Virus record (IMG/VR): IMGVR_UViG_2537562190_000019
DNA from: a virus
Lineage: Duplodnaviria > Heunggongvirae > Uroviricota > Caudoviricetes
Length of the DNA: 9,179 bases
Direction: 5' to 3' (one strand)
Positions within the stretch are counted from its first letter, which is position 1. Each line of letters opens with the position of its first letter. Both the position numbers and the translations under genes were made by a program. Below, piece after piece: positions 1-5,221 of the stretch. The notes below the pieces were generated by a model. The model saw nothing but the letters and a program-made list of their open reading frames with translations. It made no database searches and was not told where the DNA came from.

Positions 1-256
1 TGTCAGTTATCATCTTCGGTTACGGTTATCGGCAGAACGCCCTGCCGCTGACAAGAGCTTATTTGCCTGACCAATCTACTCCACATGATAGATAACTATC
101 ATTTATAACATTTCATTGATTAGTCTTTATTTTTCACTACGTTACAAATAACAACCCCGTCAAAAACAGCGAAATTAACTACACCATTAACTACACCGTT
201 TCACGAACAATATCGAACAACCACGAACAAAGATCAACACGCTTTAACCGTTATCA

Positions 257-294
257 TTTTCCGGTTAAACGTTAATCAGGCTGGTGGGCTTTAC
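257..294. repeat. 38-bp perfect direct repeat, copy 1 (TTTTCCGGTTAAACGTTAATCAGGCTGGTGGGCTTTAC)
   Basis: Identical 38-mer at 257-294 and 617-654, offset exactly 360 bp. Sequence after each copy is related but degenerate (shared blocks cggta / atgatt / acccg / gggg). Confidence 0.9.
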
Positions 295-374
295 CTGTTC
301 GGTAGGTGTTATGATTATCGTAATACCCGTTAAAGGGGCCGAATACATCACCGGATTTAGGGGATGTTCCCTGC

Positions 375-521
375 CTCCTCAAATTGAGGATTGTGGAAGA
401 ATCAATGGGTTAGTCTTACTTTCCCAACATCCCCCAATGGGGGTTTTCGAAACAATCAATAGCTTAGGCTTACTTCCCCGATCTCCTCAAATTGAGGTTG
501 CCGGAAATATCAATGGGTTAG
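375..521. repeat. Nested imperfect direct repeats between the 38-bp copies (CTCCTCAAATTGAGG at 375-389 and 483-497; ATCAATGGGTTAG-like at 400-412, 455-467, 509-521)
   Basis: Direct reading. The CTCCTCAAATTGAGG motif is itself a small inverted repeat (CCTCA-AAT-TGAGG). The two CTCCTCAAATTGAGG copies are 108 bp apart. Confidence 0.8.
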
Positions 522-575
522 GCCATAGTGCAATTTTGCACTCTGAAACAATATCAACCAGTTACCGCCGCATCC

Positions 576-597
576 CGATATGGGAATCCCCATATCG
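576..597. repeat. Hairpin-forming inverted repeat CGATATGGG-AATC-CCCATATCG
   Basis: Perfect 9-bp stem with a 4-nt loop. A near-identical hairpin occurs 116 bp further on at 692-717. Confidence 0.75.
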
Positions 598-616
598 AGA
601 TTGGATACCTGGCTTT

Positions 617-654
617 TTTTCCGGTTAAACGTTAATCAGGCTGGTGGGCTTTAC
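617..654. repeat. 38-bp perfect direct repeat, copy 2
   Basis: Exact match to 257-294. Confidence 0.9.
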
Positions 655-691
655 ATACCCTTGATCACGGTAATGATGATTCAGGTGCTTA

Positions 692-717
692 CCCGATATG
701 GGGATCACCATATCGGG
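692..717. repeat. Hairpin-forming inverted repeat CCCGATATGG-GGATCA-CCATATCGGG, just 3' of the capsid-homologue stop
   Basis: Perfect 10-bp stem with a 6-nt loop. No U-tract follows on either strand, so it is not a canonical intrinsic terminator. Confidence 0.75.
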
Positions 718-733
718 ATAGATGCCGGAAAAA

Positions 734-1666
734 TCAGCTTTTCGCCAGAACGGTGACGGCCTTATCGAGTTTTTGCCATCCGCAATAGGTGATTGCCCTG
801 AACGCTGTAGCGTCATTCTGGAAAAGGCTAACCGCCCCTGATTCGGTTTTTATTACCGCCTCATCAGTTGGGGTTATAACCGTGGCTTCAACGTTAATAA
901 TCAGCTTTTGAGCGTCTATCAGCATCATGCGATCCGCCTGTTCGCTCACAATTACCGGTATTCTCAAAAGCTCTATCTGCCAGAACTCAGCATCAGTAAG
1001 CTGTAAAGCGTTTTCTACGGGCAAGATTAGCGACGACGTGGAAAGCGTGTTACCGTTCGCTATGTGCTTTTTGAAAAGCTCTATGAAGTTTTCGGCCTCA
1101 TCAGCACCATTAAGCACGCCCTCAGGGGATACGCCAGCCACCTCCTGATCACTGGAAAGAAATTTTTTATCTATTTCTTTCACCGATTCCGATGTGATCA
1201 AGTCTCTGATCGCTGAATTTGTACCAGGGGTGCTAAATTTGATTAGCTCGTTATTCAGCATCACAATAGCGCCAAGTTTGCACAGTTTTAGCGCGCTTTC
1301 GTTTACTTCTCCCTCTTTGACAGGGATTTCTTCGGCTTCTTTAAGCCATTTACTACCCTTGCCTGATATTGACTGCAATTTTGCGCCAAACGGAAGATTA
1401 AGCGCGCTGCTGATTAGCTTGCCTGGTACAGACTGCGAAAAAATATACTCGCCAAGCTCTCTTACTATCGGCTCTGCCACCAGCGACGGCATGTTATCCG
1501 TGTTCATTCCGGCAACAATGGATTTTTCAAGAAATAACGATACTGCCGGATCATTTCTTTTCGTCATCTCTATAGCGTCAGCATGGCTAAATTTACACGA
1601 TGCCAGCACGCTGGCGGCGCGAACTGCTGGCACGCCTTTCATGTTTTTACAGATCATCTTCTTCAT
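734..1666 (-). CDS. HK97-fold major-capsid-protein homologue (capsid-size-redirection-like); true start probably the ATG at 1657
   Basis: C-terminal two-thirds show capsid-like blocks as I recall the HK97 gp5 pattern: PEGVLNGADEAENFIEL (cf. EGQLLNGDGTGDNLEGL), RIPVIVSEQADRMMLIDAQ (cf. GLPVVPTKA...GTFTVGGF), NVEATV (cf. DATVEVS). No N-terminal delta/scaffold region. The GGAGG Shine-Dalgarno directly abuts ATG 1666 but sits 9 nt before ATG 1657. Confidence 0.55.
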   Translation of the reverse strand: MKKMICKNMKGVPAVRAASVLASCKFSHADAIEMTKRNDPAVSLFLEKSIVAGMNTDNMPSLVAEPIVRELGEYIFSQSVPGKLISSALNLPFGAKLQSISGKGSKWLKEAEEIPVKEGEVNESALKLCKLGAIVMLNNELIKFSTPGTNSAIRDLITSESVKEIDKKFLSSDQEVAGVSPEGVLNGADEAENFIELFKKHIANGNTLSTSSLILPVENALQLTDAEFWQIELLRIPVIVSEQADRMMLIDAQKLIINVEATVITPTDEAVIKTESGAVSLFQNDATAFRAITYCGWQKLDKAVTVLAKS

Positions 1667-1819: not shown

Positions 1820-2308
1820 TCAGTGTTTTAAGTCTGTTGGTGGCTTAGGGATGGGGAACCGATTTGAGTAGACACTAGCGGCATTGAGTTTTTTAACCTC
1901 TTTTTTCCCAATGCTGCCGATCTTGCGGTGGGTGAACTGGGCCAGCTTAAACGCGGCATCTAAAGCCAGTTTTGGATCTGTGTCCATGTTGTCAATCAGT
2001 ATCCTGCCCATTGCTTTGATGGGGTCGGGTAGGCCGTTATCCATCATCTCAATGGTGTTAATTGATGCCCGTTCCGGTGTAACTTTTTCGGTAACTTTCT
2101 TTGTAACTTTTTTCGGTTTTGTAACCTGAAAAGTTACATCAGAAGTTACAGCCTTAAGATACTTTTTCACCTCAGGATCGTTGGATAGCTGCCAGCCTTT
2201 AACCCTTGCGGTCTTTTCGCTGTATCCCGCATGTATAGCGGCTTCCGTGGGATTTGCGCCCCTTGATAACGCATCAGCAAACCGCTTTTTTTTGGTCGTT
2301 AATGCCAT
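1820..2308 (-). CDS. terS: Small terminase subunit-like protein (TerS-like / packaging-redirection-like), 162 aa
   Basis: N-terminal signature KKKRFADALSRGANPTEAAIHAGYSEKTARVKGWQLSNDPEVKKYL matches the HTH-type small-terminase pattern (...AT.AAI.AGYS.KTA...). Start reassigned from the GTG at 2449 to the in-frame ATG at 2308, which has GAGG 8 nt upstream; the upstream extension crosses a C9 homopolymer and repeats and is unlikely to be coding. Confidence 0.6.
   Translation of the reverse strand: MALTTKKKRFADALSRGANPTEAAIHAGYSEKTARVKGWQLSNDPEVKKYLKAVTSDVTFQVTKPKKVTKKVTEKVTPERASINTIEMMDNGLPDPIKAMGRILIDNMDTDPKLALDAAFKLAQFTHRKIGSIGKKEVKKLNAASVYSNRFPIPKPPTDLKH
2078..2151. repeat. Cluster of GTAACTTT(T) direct repeats plus inverted AAGTTAC copies inside the 5' third of terS
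   Basis: gtaacttttt 2079-2088, gtaactttc 2091-2099, gtaacttttt 2103-2112, gtaacc 2121-2126; inverted gttac at 2133-2137 and 2145-2149. Two more TGTAACTTTT copies lie upstream of the start at 2332-2354. Confidence 0.8.
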
Positions 2309-3228: not shown

Positions 3229-3453
3229 CCTCTACCTCTCTACCCAATCATCTTTCAGGTCAGTAATGGCGCGGCTTTCAGATGGGTAGAGGGCTTTCGT
3301 GGCCCTCTACCCATCCTCTACCCGCTCCTCACAAACGACCTTAATCATGGTGGAGGGTGTAGAGGGCTTTTATTTGCCTTCTACCTGCCCCTCTACCCAC
3401 TTATCATATTGAATAATTTATATTTATTTTCTTTAGGTAGAAGAGGTAGAGGG
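3229..3453. repeat. Iteron-type replication origin: at least 6 direct CTCTACC(C) and 4 inverted GGTAGAG(GG) copies flanking an AT-rich stretch (about 3401-3435)
   Basis: Direct copies at 3229-3245 (x2), 3303-3323 (x2), 3378-3398 (x2); inverted copies at 3284-3293, 3359-3366, 3436-3453 (x2); GTAGAGGGCTTT recurs three times. It lies immediately 3' of the primase/helicase gene, the usual position of satellite and plasmid origins. Confidence 0.7.
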
Positions 3454-3466
3454 CTTTTGTCTAAAA

Positions 3467-5221
3467 TTATAAAAACGCGTCGCAATCATCAGTTGTAATT
3501 GCGTTGGTCTGCGTTACTCCCTTAACTCTCCGCGTAATATATTCATGTCCGTAAACTTTTGCCGCTGGCTTCATGGCCTTGCTGAACTCAGCCACGTTTA
3601 GCGGCTTGCTTCTTCCTGCGTATGCCATAAACGCCAGATAGACGCGGTAAAGGCTGTTCCTGGTCGTGTACTTCACTGAATCGCCACCGCCACCCATCAT
3701 CAGGCCGCGCGCTTCCTCCAGAAAATTCAGGAACTGGCAAAACTCAATAACCGGATCCGTCTGTTGCTTTATTGCCAGTGCTTCATCACCGTCGCGCTGT
3801 TCCAGGAGTAAAGCCCGTGCCTTTTCAGGGTCGGCAAAGTTCGCCAGTAATCGGCGGATAATCACAGGGATTTCAGCCGCGACCTTCTCCGGCAAATCCT
3901 TGTCCTTTTCTGCCTCGCTAACGATATTGTCAAAGCGAAAAATCACCCGACGGCGTGACACACCTCCGGCCCGCTCGGTGAATATCATCGGGTTGTTGTT
4001 GGTCGCCAGTACCACCGCCCTTATTACCGTCGTGAATCGCTTCTCATATTTCGGGTTAATTTCGACGGGGTCGCCGCCCGTGATTTTCTTGATGCCCGTT
4101 CCTTCGCCTGTATATTTCGGTTGGTCAGCCAGGACGATAAGACGACTCCCGACAACCTGCGCACGTCCACCAGCATCATCAAGCGATGTCATTTCAGCGC
4201 TTACCGTGTTCTGTTTCCCTGCCAGAAGGCTGGCTATGTGCGTGAATGTACTTTTACCGCTACCGCCGTCTCCGGTGGCCTCAATAAACATCTGCCAGTC
4301 GTACCGGTTCGCCATAATCATGTACAGCGCGGCACATATACGCATCATCTTGCGCGGGTCTTTTCCGGCTGCGTGATCAAGCCATTTGTGAAAGTTTGGC
4401 GCGTTGTCGCGAATGTTCTCCCCAGGTGCTGGTGGCGTGTACTCAATGCCGTTGTGCGTGGTGATCCAGTTCTCCGGCGTGTGCGGGGAAAATTCCCCCG
4501 TTTTCAGGTCAAGCGCACCATTGGCGAACGGCAGCAAATCGCCGGACGGCTCCCCCATTGGTTCGGCAATAACTTTTAACGCTTCAACGGCGTTATTGAT
4601 CACGCGTTTGCTGAAAGTGGCCCTGTGCTCTGAATAGATCGCCACCATTTCGCGGCTAAGTTCCATTGTGCTGACCGGACACCATAACCCGCCGCGCCAT
4701 ACGTGAACGATTTCACTTTCAGGATGTACGCAAACGCCATCAAAGCGATCGGAAAGCAGCTGAGCGCGTTCACTGTCCGCCATCTGCGAAAGTTGCGCCT
4801 TTTGCTTTACCGGAAGCTCAACGACCAGACCTTCAGAAAGATTCTGGCGCTCACGGGCAAGATATTCGCGCCAGTTCTCCACCTTCTGACCGTGCATTCC
4901 TTCGGGGTAAAAATTTGCATCCTGTACACCTGCCGCCGCCAGCTTCTGACCAATCTTTTTGGTCTCCACCAAGTCCAGTTCTCCTGCCTGGTACAGCCTT
5001 ACGCGTTTTTTTCCATCAGGAACAATTTGCAGTGCATCAAGTTCGGCAAGCTGATTTGGCCCAAGCCACACAGGAGGCACATTATCGCCGGATGCGGGGC
5101 CGTCCTGCTCCTGCCACTGTTTTGCATGTGCCCACGCATCACTACCCGCGAAAATAATCACCTCTGTGTCTTTGTGTTTTATTCCGCGTGGCTGTTTTTT
5201 TACGTTCGGTGCCAGTTTCAT
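3467..5221 (-). CDS. Replicative primase/helicase (P4-family primase C-terminal / D5-like SF3 NTPase domain)
   Basis: Walker A GDGGSGKST, Walker-B-like RLIVLADQ, and the P4-family primase C-terminal signature IKKITGGDPVEINPKYEKRFT (cf. LTGGD...F). ATGA overlap with the upstream 99-aa gene. Confidence 0.75.
   Translation of the reverse strand: MKLAPNVKKQPRGIKHKDTEVIIFAGSDAWAHAKQWQEQDGPASGDNVPPVWLGPNQLAELDALQIVPDGKKRVRLYQAGELDLVETKKIGQKLAAAGVQDANFYPEGMHGQKVENWREYLARERQNLSEGLVVELPVKQKAQLSQMADSERAQLLSDRFDGVCVHPESEIVHVWRGGLWCPVSTMELSREMVAIYSEHRATFSKRVINNAVEALKVIAEPMGEPSGDLLPFANGALDLKTGEFSPHTPENWITTHNGIEYTPPAPGENIRDNAPNFHKWLDHAAGKDPRKMMRICAALYMIMANRYDWQMFIEATGDGGSGKSTFTHIASLLAGKQNTVSAEMTSLDDAGGRAQVVGSRLIVLADQPKYTGEGTGIKKITGGDPVEINPKYEKRFTTVIRAVVLATNNNPMIFTERAGGVSRRRVIFRFDNIVSEAEKDKDLPEKVAAEIPVIIRRLLANFADPEKARALLLEQRDGDEALAIKQQTDPVIEFCQFLNFLEEARGLMMGGGGDSVKYTTRNSLYRVYLAFMAYAGRSKPLNVAEFSKAMKPAAKVYGHEYITRRVKGVTQTNAITTDDCDAFL

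What the first reader, a model, noticed from the sequence alone, without database searches (positions are those of the whole stretch)
572..717. Two copies of a conserved hairpin (CCGATATGGG stem) about 120 bp apart
The hairpins at 576-597 and 692-717 share the same stem sequence with different loops, suggesting selection on the stem or on an inverted-repeat binding site. Neither has a U-tract, so they are not simple terminators. The second lies immediately after the capsid-homologue stop codon; they could be RNA stability elements, a binding site for a dimeric protein, or part of a packaging signal.
Basis: seen in the sequence. Interest (0 to 1): 0.4.

Follow-up and report, generated by a model that had tools for sequence, protein, structure and literature searches.

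The report
Phage-type palindromes in satellite tail
The two hairpins are real, but they are copies of a 22-base palindrome shared by many E. coli phages and phage satellites, and they lie in a non-coding "tail" of the island that looks like a collection of binding sites borrowed from helper-phage regulator genes, next to Chi recombination signals.

Summary
Both hairpins exist as described: 576-597 (extendable to 572-601) and 692-717. Their stems are 9-10 bp, their folding energy is about -17 to -21 kcal/mol, and neither is followed by a U-tract.

They are not specific to this island. The window is a PICI-type phage satellite inserted between clpS and cspD. The palindrome CGATATGGG-RATY-CCCATATCG occurs at about 4,000 places in 1,115 of 5,426 E. 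coli genomes, always in phage or satellite DNA:
- inside phage KilA-N genes, where it encodes DMGIPIS and is kept by compensatory substitutions;
- next to terminators in lambdoid phages;
- in an iteron-rich region of virulent Dhillonviruses;
- in 59 of 79 PICI tails, 10-21 bp upstream of a 38-mer that contains Chi.

Between the two 38-mer copies lies an array of units, each a variable palindrome followed 17 nt later by an IHF consensus box. These units copy the segment inside phage roi genes that carries a palindrome and an IHF box. From memory, HK022 Roi binds its own gene beside an IHF site.

My best reading (confidence about 0.4) is that the hairpins are operator-like DNA sites for helper-phage regulators. 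The rivals are a 3'-end RNA hairpin and a recombination joint. A packaging site and a REP element are rejected.

The parts
572..601 (.). Palindrome H5, the finding's first copy. The core 576-597 is the exact 22-mer CGATATGGGAATCCCCATATCG.
   Evidence: The same 22-mer occurs in many unrelated phage contexts.
692..717 (.). Palindrome H6, the finding's second copy: CCCGATATGGGGATCACCATATCGGG. It ends 16 nt before the capsid-homologue stop codon.
   Evidence: The same position next to the capsid gene is seen in related satellites L002, L095, L098 and L205.
257..294 (+). Copy 1 of the perfect 38-nt direct repeat. It contains Chi (GCTGGTGG) at 280-287.
617..654 (+). Copy 2 of the 38-nt repeat, with Chi at 640-647. 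Together with H5, the 15 nt between them and the following 37 nt it forms the recurrent module [H - about 15 nt - 38-mer - 37 nt].
376..412 (+). Array unit 1: palindrome TCCTCAAATTGAGGA (376-390) and IHF consensus box AATCAATGGGTTA (400-412). The palindrome centre is 17 nt from the start of the box.
   Evidence: The stretch 370-418 is 94% identical to a stretch inside a phage roi/antirepressor gene.
431..466 (+). Array unit 2: palindrome CCCCCAATGGGGG (431-443) and IHF box AATCAATAGCTTA (454-466).
   Evidence: The stretch 429-476 is 92% identical to a stretch inside VT2-Sakai roi.
485..520 (+). Array unit 3: palindrome CCTCAAATTGAGG (485-497) and IHF box TATCAATGGGTTA (508-520).
527..564 (+). 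Array unit 4: palindrome AGTGCAATTTTGCACT (527-542) and IHF box TATCAACCAGTTA (552-564).
562..571 (-). TTACCGCCGC, a remnant of the stop codon and last codons of the terminal ORF of EcCICFT073-type satellites. It marks a recombination joint that abuts H5.
   Evidence: Window compared with L003 and other tails.
734..1666 (-). Capsid-homologue gene, the last gene of the island's operon.
92..235 (.). Island end: att core (about 96-106, ATAACTATCAT) and integrase arm-type repeats (TAACTACACC twice at 176-199; ACGAACAA three times at 203-235).
   Evidence: Only window 1-106 is conserved in 5,425 of 5,426 E. coli genomes.

Best explanation
The two hairpins are two copies of a portable 22-26 bp palindrome that I call H (CGATATGGG-RATY-CCCATATCG). 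I read H as a double-stranded DNA site for a symmetric, sequence-specific protein, not as an RNA terminator or a packaging site.

H is the same element that lies inside the N-terminal, DNA-binding-domain part of phage KilA-N genes. It also serves as an operator-like site in non-coding phage DNA.

In this satellite, H sits in a 630-bp non-coding tail between the last gene and the att site. The tail has three kinds of part:
1. H copies.
2. A 38-mer carrying Chi, present twice.
3. An array of units, each a variable palindrome followed 17 nt later by an IHF box. These units copy the segment inside phage roi genes that carries a palindrome and an IHF box. I take that segment to be the Roi operator with its IHF site.

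Proposed mechanism (inferred, not shown). When a helper lambdoid phage is active, its KilA-N and Rha/Roi-type regulators, together with host IHF, occupy the tail of the replicating satellite. That would either titrate those regulators or build a nucleoprotein block at the end of the satellite's operon, next to att. The co-oriented Chi sites would protect the same end from RecBCD.

The duplication of H in this particular island comes from a recombinational join of two tail types. The joint lies exactly at H5.
For: SHOWN
1. The window is a PICI-type satellite: integrase, AlpA-like regulator, D5-type primase, TerS and a capsid homologue, all on the - strand. It is inserted between clpS and yljB/cspD.
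2. H occurs at 3,984 places in 1,115 of 5,426 E. coli genomes and in at least 120 IMG/VR contigs. Of 122 occurrences classified by my script, 38 were next to a terminator, 26 were in KilA-N coding sequence, 16 were in satellite tails and 42 were left unclassified. Several of the unclassified ones are also terminator-adjacent or tail-like by eye.
3. In an unbiased sample of KilA-N genes, the palindrome is kept by paired substitutions that change amino acids symmetrically: DMGIPIS, DAGIPAS, ETGIPVS, DVGIPTS and SMGIPID. Overall 95.5% of cells are paired, 8 of 9 pairs show changes on both sides, and 0 of 500 shuffles reach this.
4. Phage roi genes (Pfam Phage_pRha + ANT) carry an 11-15 bp palindrome at a fixed codon position. 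Its sequence goes with the recognition-helix allele. It is followed 10 nt later by an IHF consensus box. In HK022 that box is the only IHF consensus in the nin region, and it lies inside roi.
5. The satellite array units have the same geometry. The palindrome centre is 16.5-17.5 nt from the box in all but 2 of the 58 units that have a recognisable palindrome (63 distinct units in all). There are at least 10 palindrome types. IHF boxes number 190 on the + strand against 2.8 expected. Two window units are 92-94% identical to different roi alleles. Adjacent units share the same palindrome in only 1 of 30 adjacent pairs.
6. In 13 of 90 distinct phage contexts, H itself is followed by an IHF-like box exactly 17 nt from its centre. 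No such box is found at any other distance from 8 to 25 nt. In L100, H lies 24 nt upstream of a gene start.
7. H lies 10-21 bp upstream of the 38-mer in 59 of 79 tails.
8. Across the tails, 123 Chi sites are co-oriented with the 38-mer and 6 are opposite. Of the co-oriented ones, 42 lie outside the search pattern.

FROM MEMORY, NOT VERIFIED HERE
Clerget and Boccard 1996 (J Bacteriol 178:4077; cited in PMC3430580) reported that HK022 Roi binds a site inside its own gene, closely linked to an IHF site. The paper was not held.
Against: - No binding was tested. No KilA-N or Roi homologue is encoded by the island, so any binding protein must come from a helper phage.
- Virulent Dhillonviruses carry two perfect H copies but no detectable KilA-N or Roi homologue in 36.5 of 43.9 kb. 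H may therefore be read by something else, or act as a structure.
- H5 and H6 have no IHF box at +17 in this window.
- From my own knowledge, lambda, a working helper of EcCICFT073, has no roi. The tail therefore cannot be required for induction or packaging by every helper.
- Six of the nine stem pairs of H in KilA-N genes are forced by the peptide DMGIPIS, so part of the palindromy is a coding by-product.
- H6 sits just after a stop codon, which equally suits an RNA role.
Confidence: 0.4

Rival explanations
1. H acts as a structure, either an RNA hairpin or an extruded DNA hairpin. At the 3' end of the operon it would stabilise or process the transcript, or act as a barrier to read-through. 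Its sequence would matter only for pairing.
For: - H6 lies 16 nt after the capsid stop codon.
- The stems are strong, -17 to -21 kcal/mol.
- In other phages H also follows gene ends. It comes right before a tR2-like terminator in the lambdoid nin region and right after the primase/helicase stop codon in Dhillonvirus.
- Pairing in KilA-N genes is kept by compensatory changes, and many different arm sequences occur around GGGAATTCCC in diverse phages.
Against: - The identical 22-mer recurs in unrelated non-coding contexts, which a purely structural element does not need.
- The satellite copies differ by single uncompensated mismatches.
- There is no excess of G.U intermediates: 1 G.U against 9 other mismatches.
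- The fixed 17-nt spacing to an IHF box is a DNA-level feature.
- There is no U-tract.
- H5 lies a further 120 nt downstream, past the Chi site.
- No Rfam family matches.
Confidence: 0.25
2. The hairpins are recombination joints or hotspots. H and the Chi-bearing 38-mer would be linker sequences at which satellite tails and phage DNA are shuffled. On this view the second copy is a scar of such an event and has no function of its own.
For: - H5 abuts the remnant TTACCGCCGC of another satellite type's terminal ORF.
- The 38-mer is duplicated without a single change.
- Truncated H copies exist, as in L002 and L208.
- The tails are highly mosaic: 25 distinct unit orders.
- Chi sites flank H, sometimes as an outward-facing pair, as in L012 and L022.
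Against: - This does not explain why H keeps a fixed distance to the 38-mer in 59 of 79 tails.
- It does not explain why the palindrome is maintained by compensatory change in KilA-N genes.
- It does not explain the sharply delimited palindrome-plus-IHF-box units.
Confidence: 0.2
3. The hairpins are part of the satellite's packaging signal, either a cosN-like cleavage site or a pac site for the island's TerS.
For: - cosN sites have partial two-fold symmetry.
- The tail lies close to cos1 in EcCICFT073.
- The island encodes a TerS.
Against: - EcCICFT073 has the same H plus 38-mer module at L003 11990-12080. Its exact lambda cosN sequences lie at 12689-12700 and 13428-13439. These are presumably the functionally mapped cos sites of PMC6092414 and PMC6739421.
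- No lambda-like cosN is present in the window's tail.
- H also occurs in phages with unrelated packaging systems.
Confidence: 0.03
4. The hairpins are a generic host REP/BIME-like repeat with no link to phages or satellites.
For: - The motif is a palindrome found at many places per genome, up to 12.
- BIME-1/RIB elements also combine palindromes with an IHF site at the 3' ends of operons (my own knowledge).
Against: - The motif is absent from 4,311 of 5,426 genomes at this sensitivity.
- Of the sampled contexts that could be classified, all are phage or satellite DNA; about a third of the IMG/VR sample could not be classified.
- The sequence is unrelated to the REP consensus (my own knowledge).
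Confidence: 0.05

Closest known systems
HK022 Roi binding site with linked IHF site inside the roi gene (Clerget and Boccard 1996; recalled from memory, citation seen in PMC3430580)
   Same: The array units next to the hairpins reproduce the segment inside roi: a palindrome, 10 nt, then WATCAANNNNTTR. Two units are 92-94% identical to roi alleles. H shows the same 17-nt geometry to an IHF-like box in 13 phage contexts.
   Different: In the satellite the sites are non-coding and arrayed, each unit has a different palindrome, and no roi gene is present. H5 and H6 themselves correspond to the palindrome of KilA-N genes rather than roi genes, and they have no IHF box here. Binding of the satellite sites by any protein is untested.
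Lambda ori iterons inside gene O (an initiator binding palindromic sites within its own gene; my own knowledge)
   Same: In both cases a DNA-binding protein's gene contains the palindromic sites. The sites vary with the allele of the DNA-binding domain.
   Different: There is no evidence that KilA-N or Roi proteins are replication initiators. The satellite's likely ori is elsewhere (iterons at 3268-3460).
REP/BIME elements, especially the RIB/RIP class (two palindromic units flanking an IHF site at 3' ends of operons; my own knowledge)
   Same: Both combine palindromes with IHF sites, lie downstream of the last gene of a transcription unit, and are dispersed in many copies.
   Different: The sequence is different. 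H is carried only on phages and satellites rather than the core chromosome. The satellite palindromes are allele-matched to phage genes.
Terminally clustered, co-oriented Chi sites of lambdoid phages that lack a recombination module, such as LLS (PMC12315714)
   Same: The 38-mer carries Chi. Chi in the tails is co-oriented 123 to 6. In EcCICFT073 the Chi site lies about 630 bp from cos1, in the orientation recognised by RecBCD entering from the free end.
   Different: This applies to the 38-mer, not to the hairpins. The packaging direction of the TerS-type island in this window is unknown. Over the whole island the Chi sites point both ways (6 and 4).
EcCICFT073 cos1/cos2 and Rpp-directed packaging (PMC6092414, PMC6739421)
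   Same: It belongs to the same satellite family and has the same tail module.
   Different: Its cosN sequences are separate elements several hundred bp away. The present island has a TerS and a capsid homologue instead.

Membership tests
Intrinsic (Rho-independent) terminator | G+C-rich stem-loop immediately followed by a U-tract | tested here: not met
   One search found 0 terminator-like sites in 1-1000. The T7 run at 611-617 starts 10 nt or more after H5.
Lambda-type cos site | A cosN sequence (GGGCGGCGACCT or a close variant) with cosQ and cosB flanks | tested here: not met
   One search found no match with 3 or fewer mismatches in the tail. In EcCICFT073 the cosN sites lie outside the homologous module.
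REP/BIME host repeat | Dispersed in core chromosomal intergenic regions of essentially all E. coli | tested here: not met
   One search found the motif in 1,115 of 5,426 genomes. The contexts that could be classified are phage or satellite DNA.
KilA-N-type portable palindrome (H) | Match to CGATATGGG-RATY-CCCATATCG, the palindrome over the DMGIPIS codons of KilA-N genes | tested here: met
   Window 576-597 is the exact 22-mer seen in phages. H6 differs at 3 positions.
KilA-N-type portable palindrome (H) | Selection on two-fold symmetry, shown by compensatory change | tested here: met
   Met in KilA-N genes (8 of 9 pairs covary, 0 of 500 shuffles reach this). Among the satellite copies themselves only uncompensated single mismatches are seen.
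Roi-operator plus IHF module | Palindrome centred 17 nt upstream of a WATCAANNNNTTR box | tested here: not met
   H5 and H6 have no such box at +17. The feature is met by the four neighbouring units at 376-564 and by H in 13 of 90 phage contexts.
Roi-operator plus IHF module | Bound by Roi and IHF | not testable with these tools
   This needs EMSA or footprinting. The published binding data could not be read here.
Chi hotspot | The octamer 5'-GCTGGTGG-3', co-oriented | tested here: met
   Chi lies at 280-287 and 640-647 inside the 38-mer that flanks the hairpins. This applies to the neighbouring element, not to the hairpins.
Known RNA family (Rfam 15) | Covariance-model match | tested here: not met
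   Searches gave only sub-threshold chance hits to eukaryotic or viral families, plus a tRNA elsewhere in L104.
CRISPR, type III toxin-antitoxin (ToxI-like) or integron attC arrays | Identical repeats with variable spacers; or a repeat array upstream of a toxin gene; or R''/R' cores with an integron integrase | tested here: not met
   The array units have variable palindromes and a conserved linker, the reverse of a CRISPR array. No toxin gene or integron integrase is nearby.

The most novel reading that the evidence does not exclude
E. coli PICI satellites carry, in their non-coding tail, a multi-specificity library of operator mimics. The mimics are KilA-N-type H sites and at least 10 kinds of Roi-type palindrome paired with IHF boxes. 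They would let one satellite sense, titrate or exploit the antirepressor-like regulators of many different helper phages, with Chi sites guarding the same DNA end. A corollary is that KilA-N and Rha/Roi genes carry self-encoded operators whose symmetry is kept even at the cost of paired amino-acid changes.
Probability: 0.3. Interest if true: 0.85.

Novelty: new variant of a known kind. Interest (0 to 1): 0.6.

Why it matters
If the tail sites do bind helper-phage KilA-N and Roi proteins, this would be a new layer of satellite-helper interaction: a cis-acting array of binding sites rather than a protein.

It would give a first functional handle on two very common but poorly understood families of phage regulators.

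It would also explain a conserved, mosaic, non-coding region found in hundreds of E. coli satellites, including the model element EcCICFT073.

Separately, the compensatory, amino-acid-changing evolution of a palindrome inside KilA-N genes is a clear case of nucleic-acid-level selection overriding protein sequence.

The Chi-bearing repeat suggests that satellites manage RecBCD in the same way as lambdoid phages that lack a recombination module.

Tried and rejected
1. cos-site idea. The flanks GTTAC ... TTTTCCGGTT resemble lambda cos flanks. I dropped this after finding the exact lambda cosN sequences of EcCICFT073 outside the homologous module.

2. Coding region. ORF 284-628 (+) spans the array with 18-codon periodicity. 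However, the frame is broken in L002 and differs in L003. The periodicity is inherited from the roi coding sequence.

3. att duplication. The 38-mer is not the att core. Only window 1-106 is chromosomal.

4. Type III toxin-antitoxin, CRISPR and integron attC arrays do not fit (see the membership table).

5. Rfam gave nothing.

6. Three collection scans used a mis-specified 38-mer pattern with one base too many. Their empty or random results mean nothing. One local scan was mis-specified in a similar way and was redone correctly.

7. The Roi paper could not be read. Literature searches for the motif sequences and for PICI combined with Chi or IHF found no description of these elements.

8. A PDB sequence search of the terminal ORF of EcCICFT073 found nothing. 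I therefore do not call that ORF Rpp.

9. The promoter scan found only one weak + strand hit, at 650-677.

10. I considered matching tail unit types to the roi alleles of co-resident prophages through shared IMG genome ids. I abandoned this because only about 6 genomes overlapped.

Full report
THE OBSERVATION

Both hairpins are present at the stated coordinates. The first has a perfect 9-bp stem (576-584 with 589-597) and the loop AATC. It extends to 572-601 with one C.A mismatch. The second has a perfect 10-bp stem (692-701 with 708-717) and the loop GGATCA. They are 89% identical over 28 nt. Each folds at -16.6 to -21.5 kcal/mol on either strand, and 0 of 200 shuffles fold as well. The window has three such stems against 0.28 expected. 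No terminator-like site was found. The second hairpin ends 16 nt before the stop codon of the capsid homologue, which is encoded at 734-1666 on the - strand.

WHAT THE WINDOW IS

All large ORFs lie on the - strand: integrase, an AlpA-like excisionase/regulator, a D5/P4-type primase, TerS and an HK97-type capsid homologue. In a 100% identical genome the element sits between clpS and yljB/cspD. Only window 1-106 is conserved in 5,425 of 5,426 E. coli genomes. The island therefore starts at about 107, next to an att core and integrase arm-type repeats that are mirrored beyond int. This is a PICI-type phage satellite. The finding lies in its 630-bp non-coding tail (107-733), downstream of the last gene.

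ANATOMY OF THE TAIL

The tail contains three kinds of element.

- A perfect 38-nt direct repeat at 257-294 and 617-654. Each copy contains the Chi octamer, at 280-287 and 640-647.
- Four units of about 54 nt between the two 38-mers. Each is a different palindrome followed by a box matching the IHF consensus WATCAANNNNTTR. The palindrome centre is 17 to 17.5 nt from the start of the box.
- H5 directly after the array, and H6 37 nt after the second 38-mer.

The + strand ORF that covers the array is not conserved in relatives, so the region is non-coding. Related islands have the same parts in other numbers and orders. These include the model PICI EcCICFT073 (L003). Window 562-571 (TTACCGCCGC) is the stop codon and last codons of the terminal ORF of EcCICFT073-type islands. 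The present tail is therefore a recombinant of two tail types, and the joint lies exactly at H5.

THE HAIRPIN IS NOT ISLAND-SPECIFIC

In complete E. coli genomes it occurs at 3,984 places in 1,115 of 5,426 genomes, with a median of 4 and a maximum of 12 per genome that has any.

My script classified the 122 IMG/VR occurrences as follows:
- 38 next to an intrinsic terminator, for example between an upstream gene and ninB in L033;
- 26 inside the coding sequence of KilA-N-domain genes (Pfam), where the palindrome encodes DMGIPIS;
- 16 in satellite tails;
- 42 unclassified, of which several are terminator-adjacent or tail-like by eye.

The same palindrome also occurs in virulent Dhillonviruses. 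There, two perfect tandem copies lie in an iteron-rich region right after the primase/helicase gene.

SELECTION ON SYMMETRY

I took an unbiased sample of KilA-N homologues down to 54% protein identity. In these the palindrome persists through paired substitutions that change amino acids symmetrically:
- GAT ATG GGA ATT CCC ATA TCG
- GAT GCG ... GCA TCG
- GAA ACG ... GTT TCG
- GAT GTC GGA ATT CCG ACA TCG
- TCT ATG ... ATA GAC

Overall 95.5% of cells are paired, 8 of 9 pairs show changes on both sides, and 0 of 500 shuffles reach this. A broader scan around GGGAATTCCC found 34 of 120 hits fully complementary at four free positions. Chance would give well under 1%. Of 78 distinct sequences outside recognised KilA-N genes, 17 were fully complementary against 2.1 in shuffles.

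Part of the palindromy is a by-product of coding: six of the nine stem pairs follow from the peptide itself. But the perfect version needs rare codons (ATA and CCC), and the covariation shows selection at the nucleic-acid level.

THE NEIGHBOURING ARRAY EXPLAINS THE CLASS

Two window units are 92-94% identical to a 48-nt stretch inside phage roi/antirepressor genes. Across roi alleles, an 11-15 bp palindrome occupies a fixed codon position. Its sequence tracks the recognition-helix allele. It is followed 10 nt later by an IHF box.

In HK022 that box is the only IHF consensus in the nin region, and it lies inside roi. This fits my recollection of Clerget and Boccard 1996, who reported that Roi binds its own gene next to an IHF site. 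That paper was not readable here.

In 79 unique satellite tails I found 63 distinct units and at least 10 palindrome types. In all but 2 of the 58 units with a recognisable palindrome, the centre lies 16.5-17.5 nt from the box. Two-fold symmetry peaks only at that centre: 0.63 against 0.2-0.3 at most other centres, with shuffles at 0.48 +/- 0.016. IHF boxes number 190 on the + strand and 64 on the - strand, against 2.8 expected. Adjacent units almost never repeat a palindrome (1 of 30 adjacent pairs).

H fits the same frame. In 13 of 90 distinct phage contexts an IHF-like box starts exactly 17 nt from the centre of H. None starts at any other distance from 8 to 25 nt. In L100, H lies 24 nt upstream of a gene start. 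In L104 and L120 it follows a tR'-like terminator downstream of Q.

In satellite tails, H lies 10-21 bp upstream of the 38-mer in 59 of 79 cases. Its two main variants (...ATATCG and ...ATAACG) mirror the DMGIPIS and DMGIPIT alleles of KilA-N genes. Differences among the satellite copies are single uncompensated mismatches.

CHI

Across the tails, 123 Chi sites are co-oriented with the 38-mer and 6 are opposite. Of the co-oriented ones, 42 lie outside my search pattern. About 1.4 per strand would be expected by chance.

In EcCICFT073 the Chi site lies about 630 bp to the left of cos1, in the orientation recognised by RecBCD entering from the free end. This is the arrangement described for lambdoid phages that lack a recombination module (PMC12315714).

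Whole islands are Chi-rich: 10 sites in 9.2 kb here and 11 in 11.5 kb in EcCICFT073.

INTERPRETATION

The evidence favours a DNA site for a symmetric, sequence-specific protein over a merely structural hairpin. The reasons are:
- exact sequence identity across unrelated contexts;
- the DNA-level coupling to IHF boxes;
- allele-matched palindromes in the array;
- operator-like positions in phages.

I therefore read H5 and H6 as operator-mimic sites for helper-phage KilA-N-type regulators. They would be part of a tail that collects such sites for many helper specificities, beside Chi. Binding, and what the satellite gains from it (titration, a read-through block at the operon end next to att and int, or sensing), are inferred and not shown.

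Weak points:
- No KilA-N or Roi homologue is present in the island, or in the Dhillonvirus that carries H.
- Lambda, a known helper, has no roi as far as I know.
- H5 and H6 have no IHF box in this window.
- H6 lies at a gene end, which equally suits an RNA role.

I give the main reading 0.4, the structural RNA or DNA hairpin 0.25, a recombination joint or linker 0.2, a packaging site 0.03 and a host REP-like repeat 0.05.

NOVELTY

I found no description of these tail elements in the PICI papers I could search or read, and none by searching for the motif sequences. The components have precedents: the Roi site with its IHF site, and Chi clustering. Their assembly as an array in a satellite tail appears to be new, as does the compensatory palindrome in KilA-N genes.

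Noticed in passing
window 257-294 and 617-654: A perfect 38-nt direct repeat, each copy containing Chi (280-287 and 640-647). Chi is co-oriented 123 to 6 across 79 related satellite tails.
   Followed up: yes
window, whole (Chi + strand starts at 280, 640, 4428, 5287, 5583, 6212; - strand at 1477, 4167, 6736, 8288): There are ten Chi octamers in 9.2 kb, about five times the E. coli average density as I recall it. EcCICFT073 has 11 in 11.5 kb. These satellites are Chi-rich on both strands.
   Followed up: partly
window 376-564: An array of four units, each a palindrome followed 17 nt later by an IHF consensus box. The units copy a segment inside phage roi genes, and each has a different palindrome.
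   Followed up: yes
window 3268-3460: GGTAGAGGGCTTT iterons and a 27-nt inverted repeat lie just downstream of the primase gene. This is probably the satellite's replication origin.
   Followed up: no
window 2072-2153 and 2329-2355: Direct and inverted GTAACTTT(T) repeats lie inside the terS gene. This is a candidate pac site for the island's own small terminase.
   Followed up: no
window 92-235; L001 21175-21340: The att core is ATAACTATCAT. Integrase arm-type repeats (TAACTACACC and ACGAACAA) occur at both ends of the island. The insertion lies in the clpS-cspD intergenic region, directly upstream of clpS.
   Followed up: partly
window 562-571: TTACCGCCGC is the stop codon plus last codons of the terminal ORF of EcCICFT073-type satellites. 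The tail is therefore a recombinant of two satellite tail types, joined at H5.
   Followed up: partly
L211-L290 (KilA-N genes); L491 and later loci: KilA-N genes of very different phages keep a palindrome over the xGIPx motif by paired substitutions that change amino acids symmetrically (M/I, A/A, T/V, V/T, G/P).
   Followed up: partly
L490 16380-16570 (Dhillonvirus vB_EcoS_PNS1): Two perfect tandem copies of CGATATGGGAATTCCCATATCG alternate with GGCAACCAATGCGCGC iterons right after the primase/helicase gene. No KilA-N or Roi homologue was found in the 36.5 kb examined. What reads the palindrome there is unexplained.
   Followed up: partly
L024, L038, L204, L207, L210 tails: Some satellite tails carry an extra segment of about 250 nt that is rich in GTCAC repeats (...gtcacggtgtgtcactggttgtcactctccgtcacg...). 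Its function is unknown.
   Followed up: no
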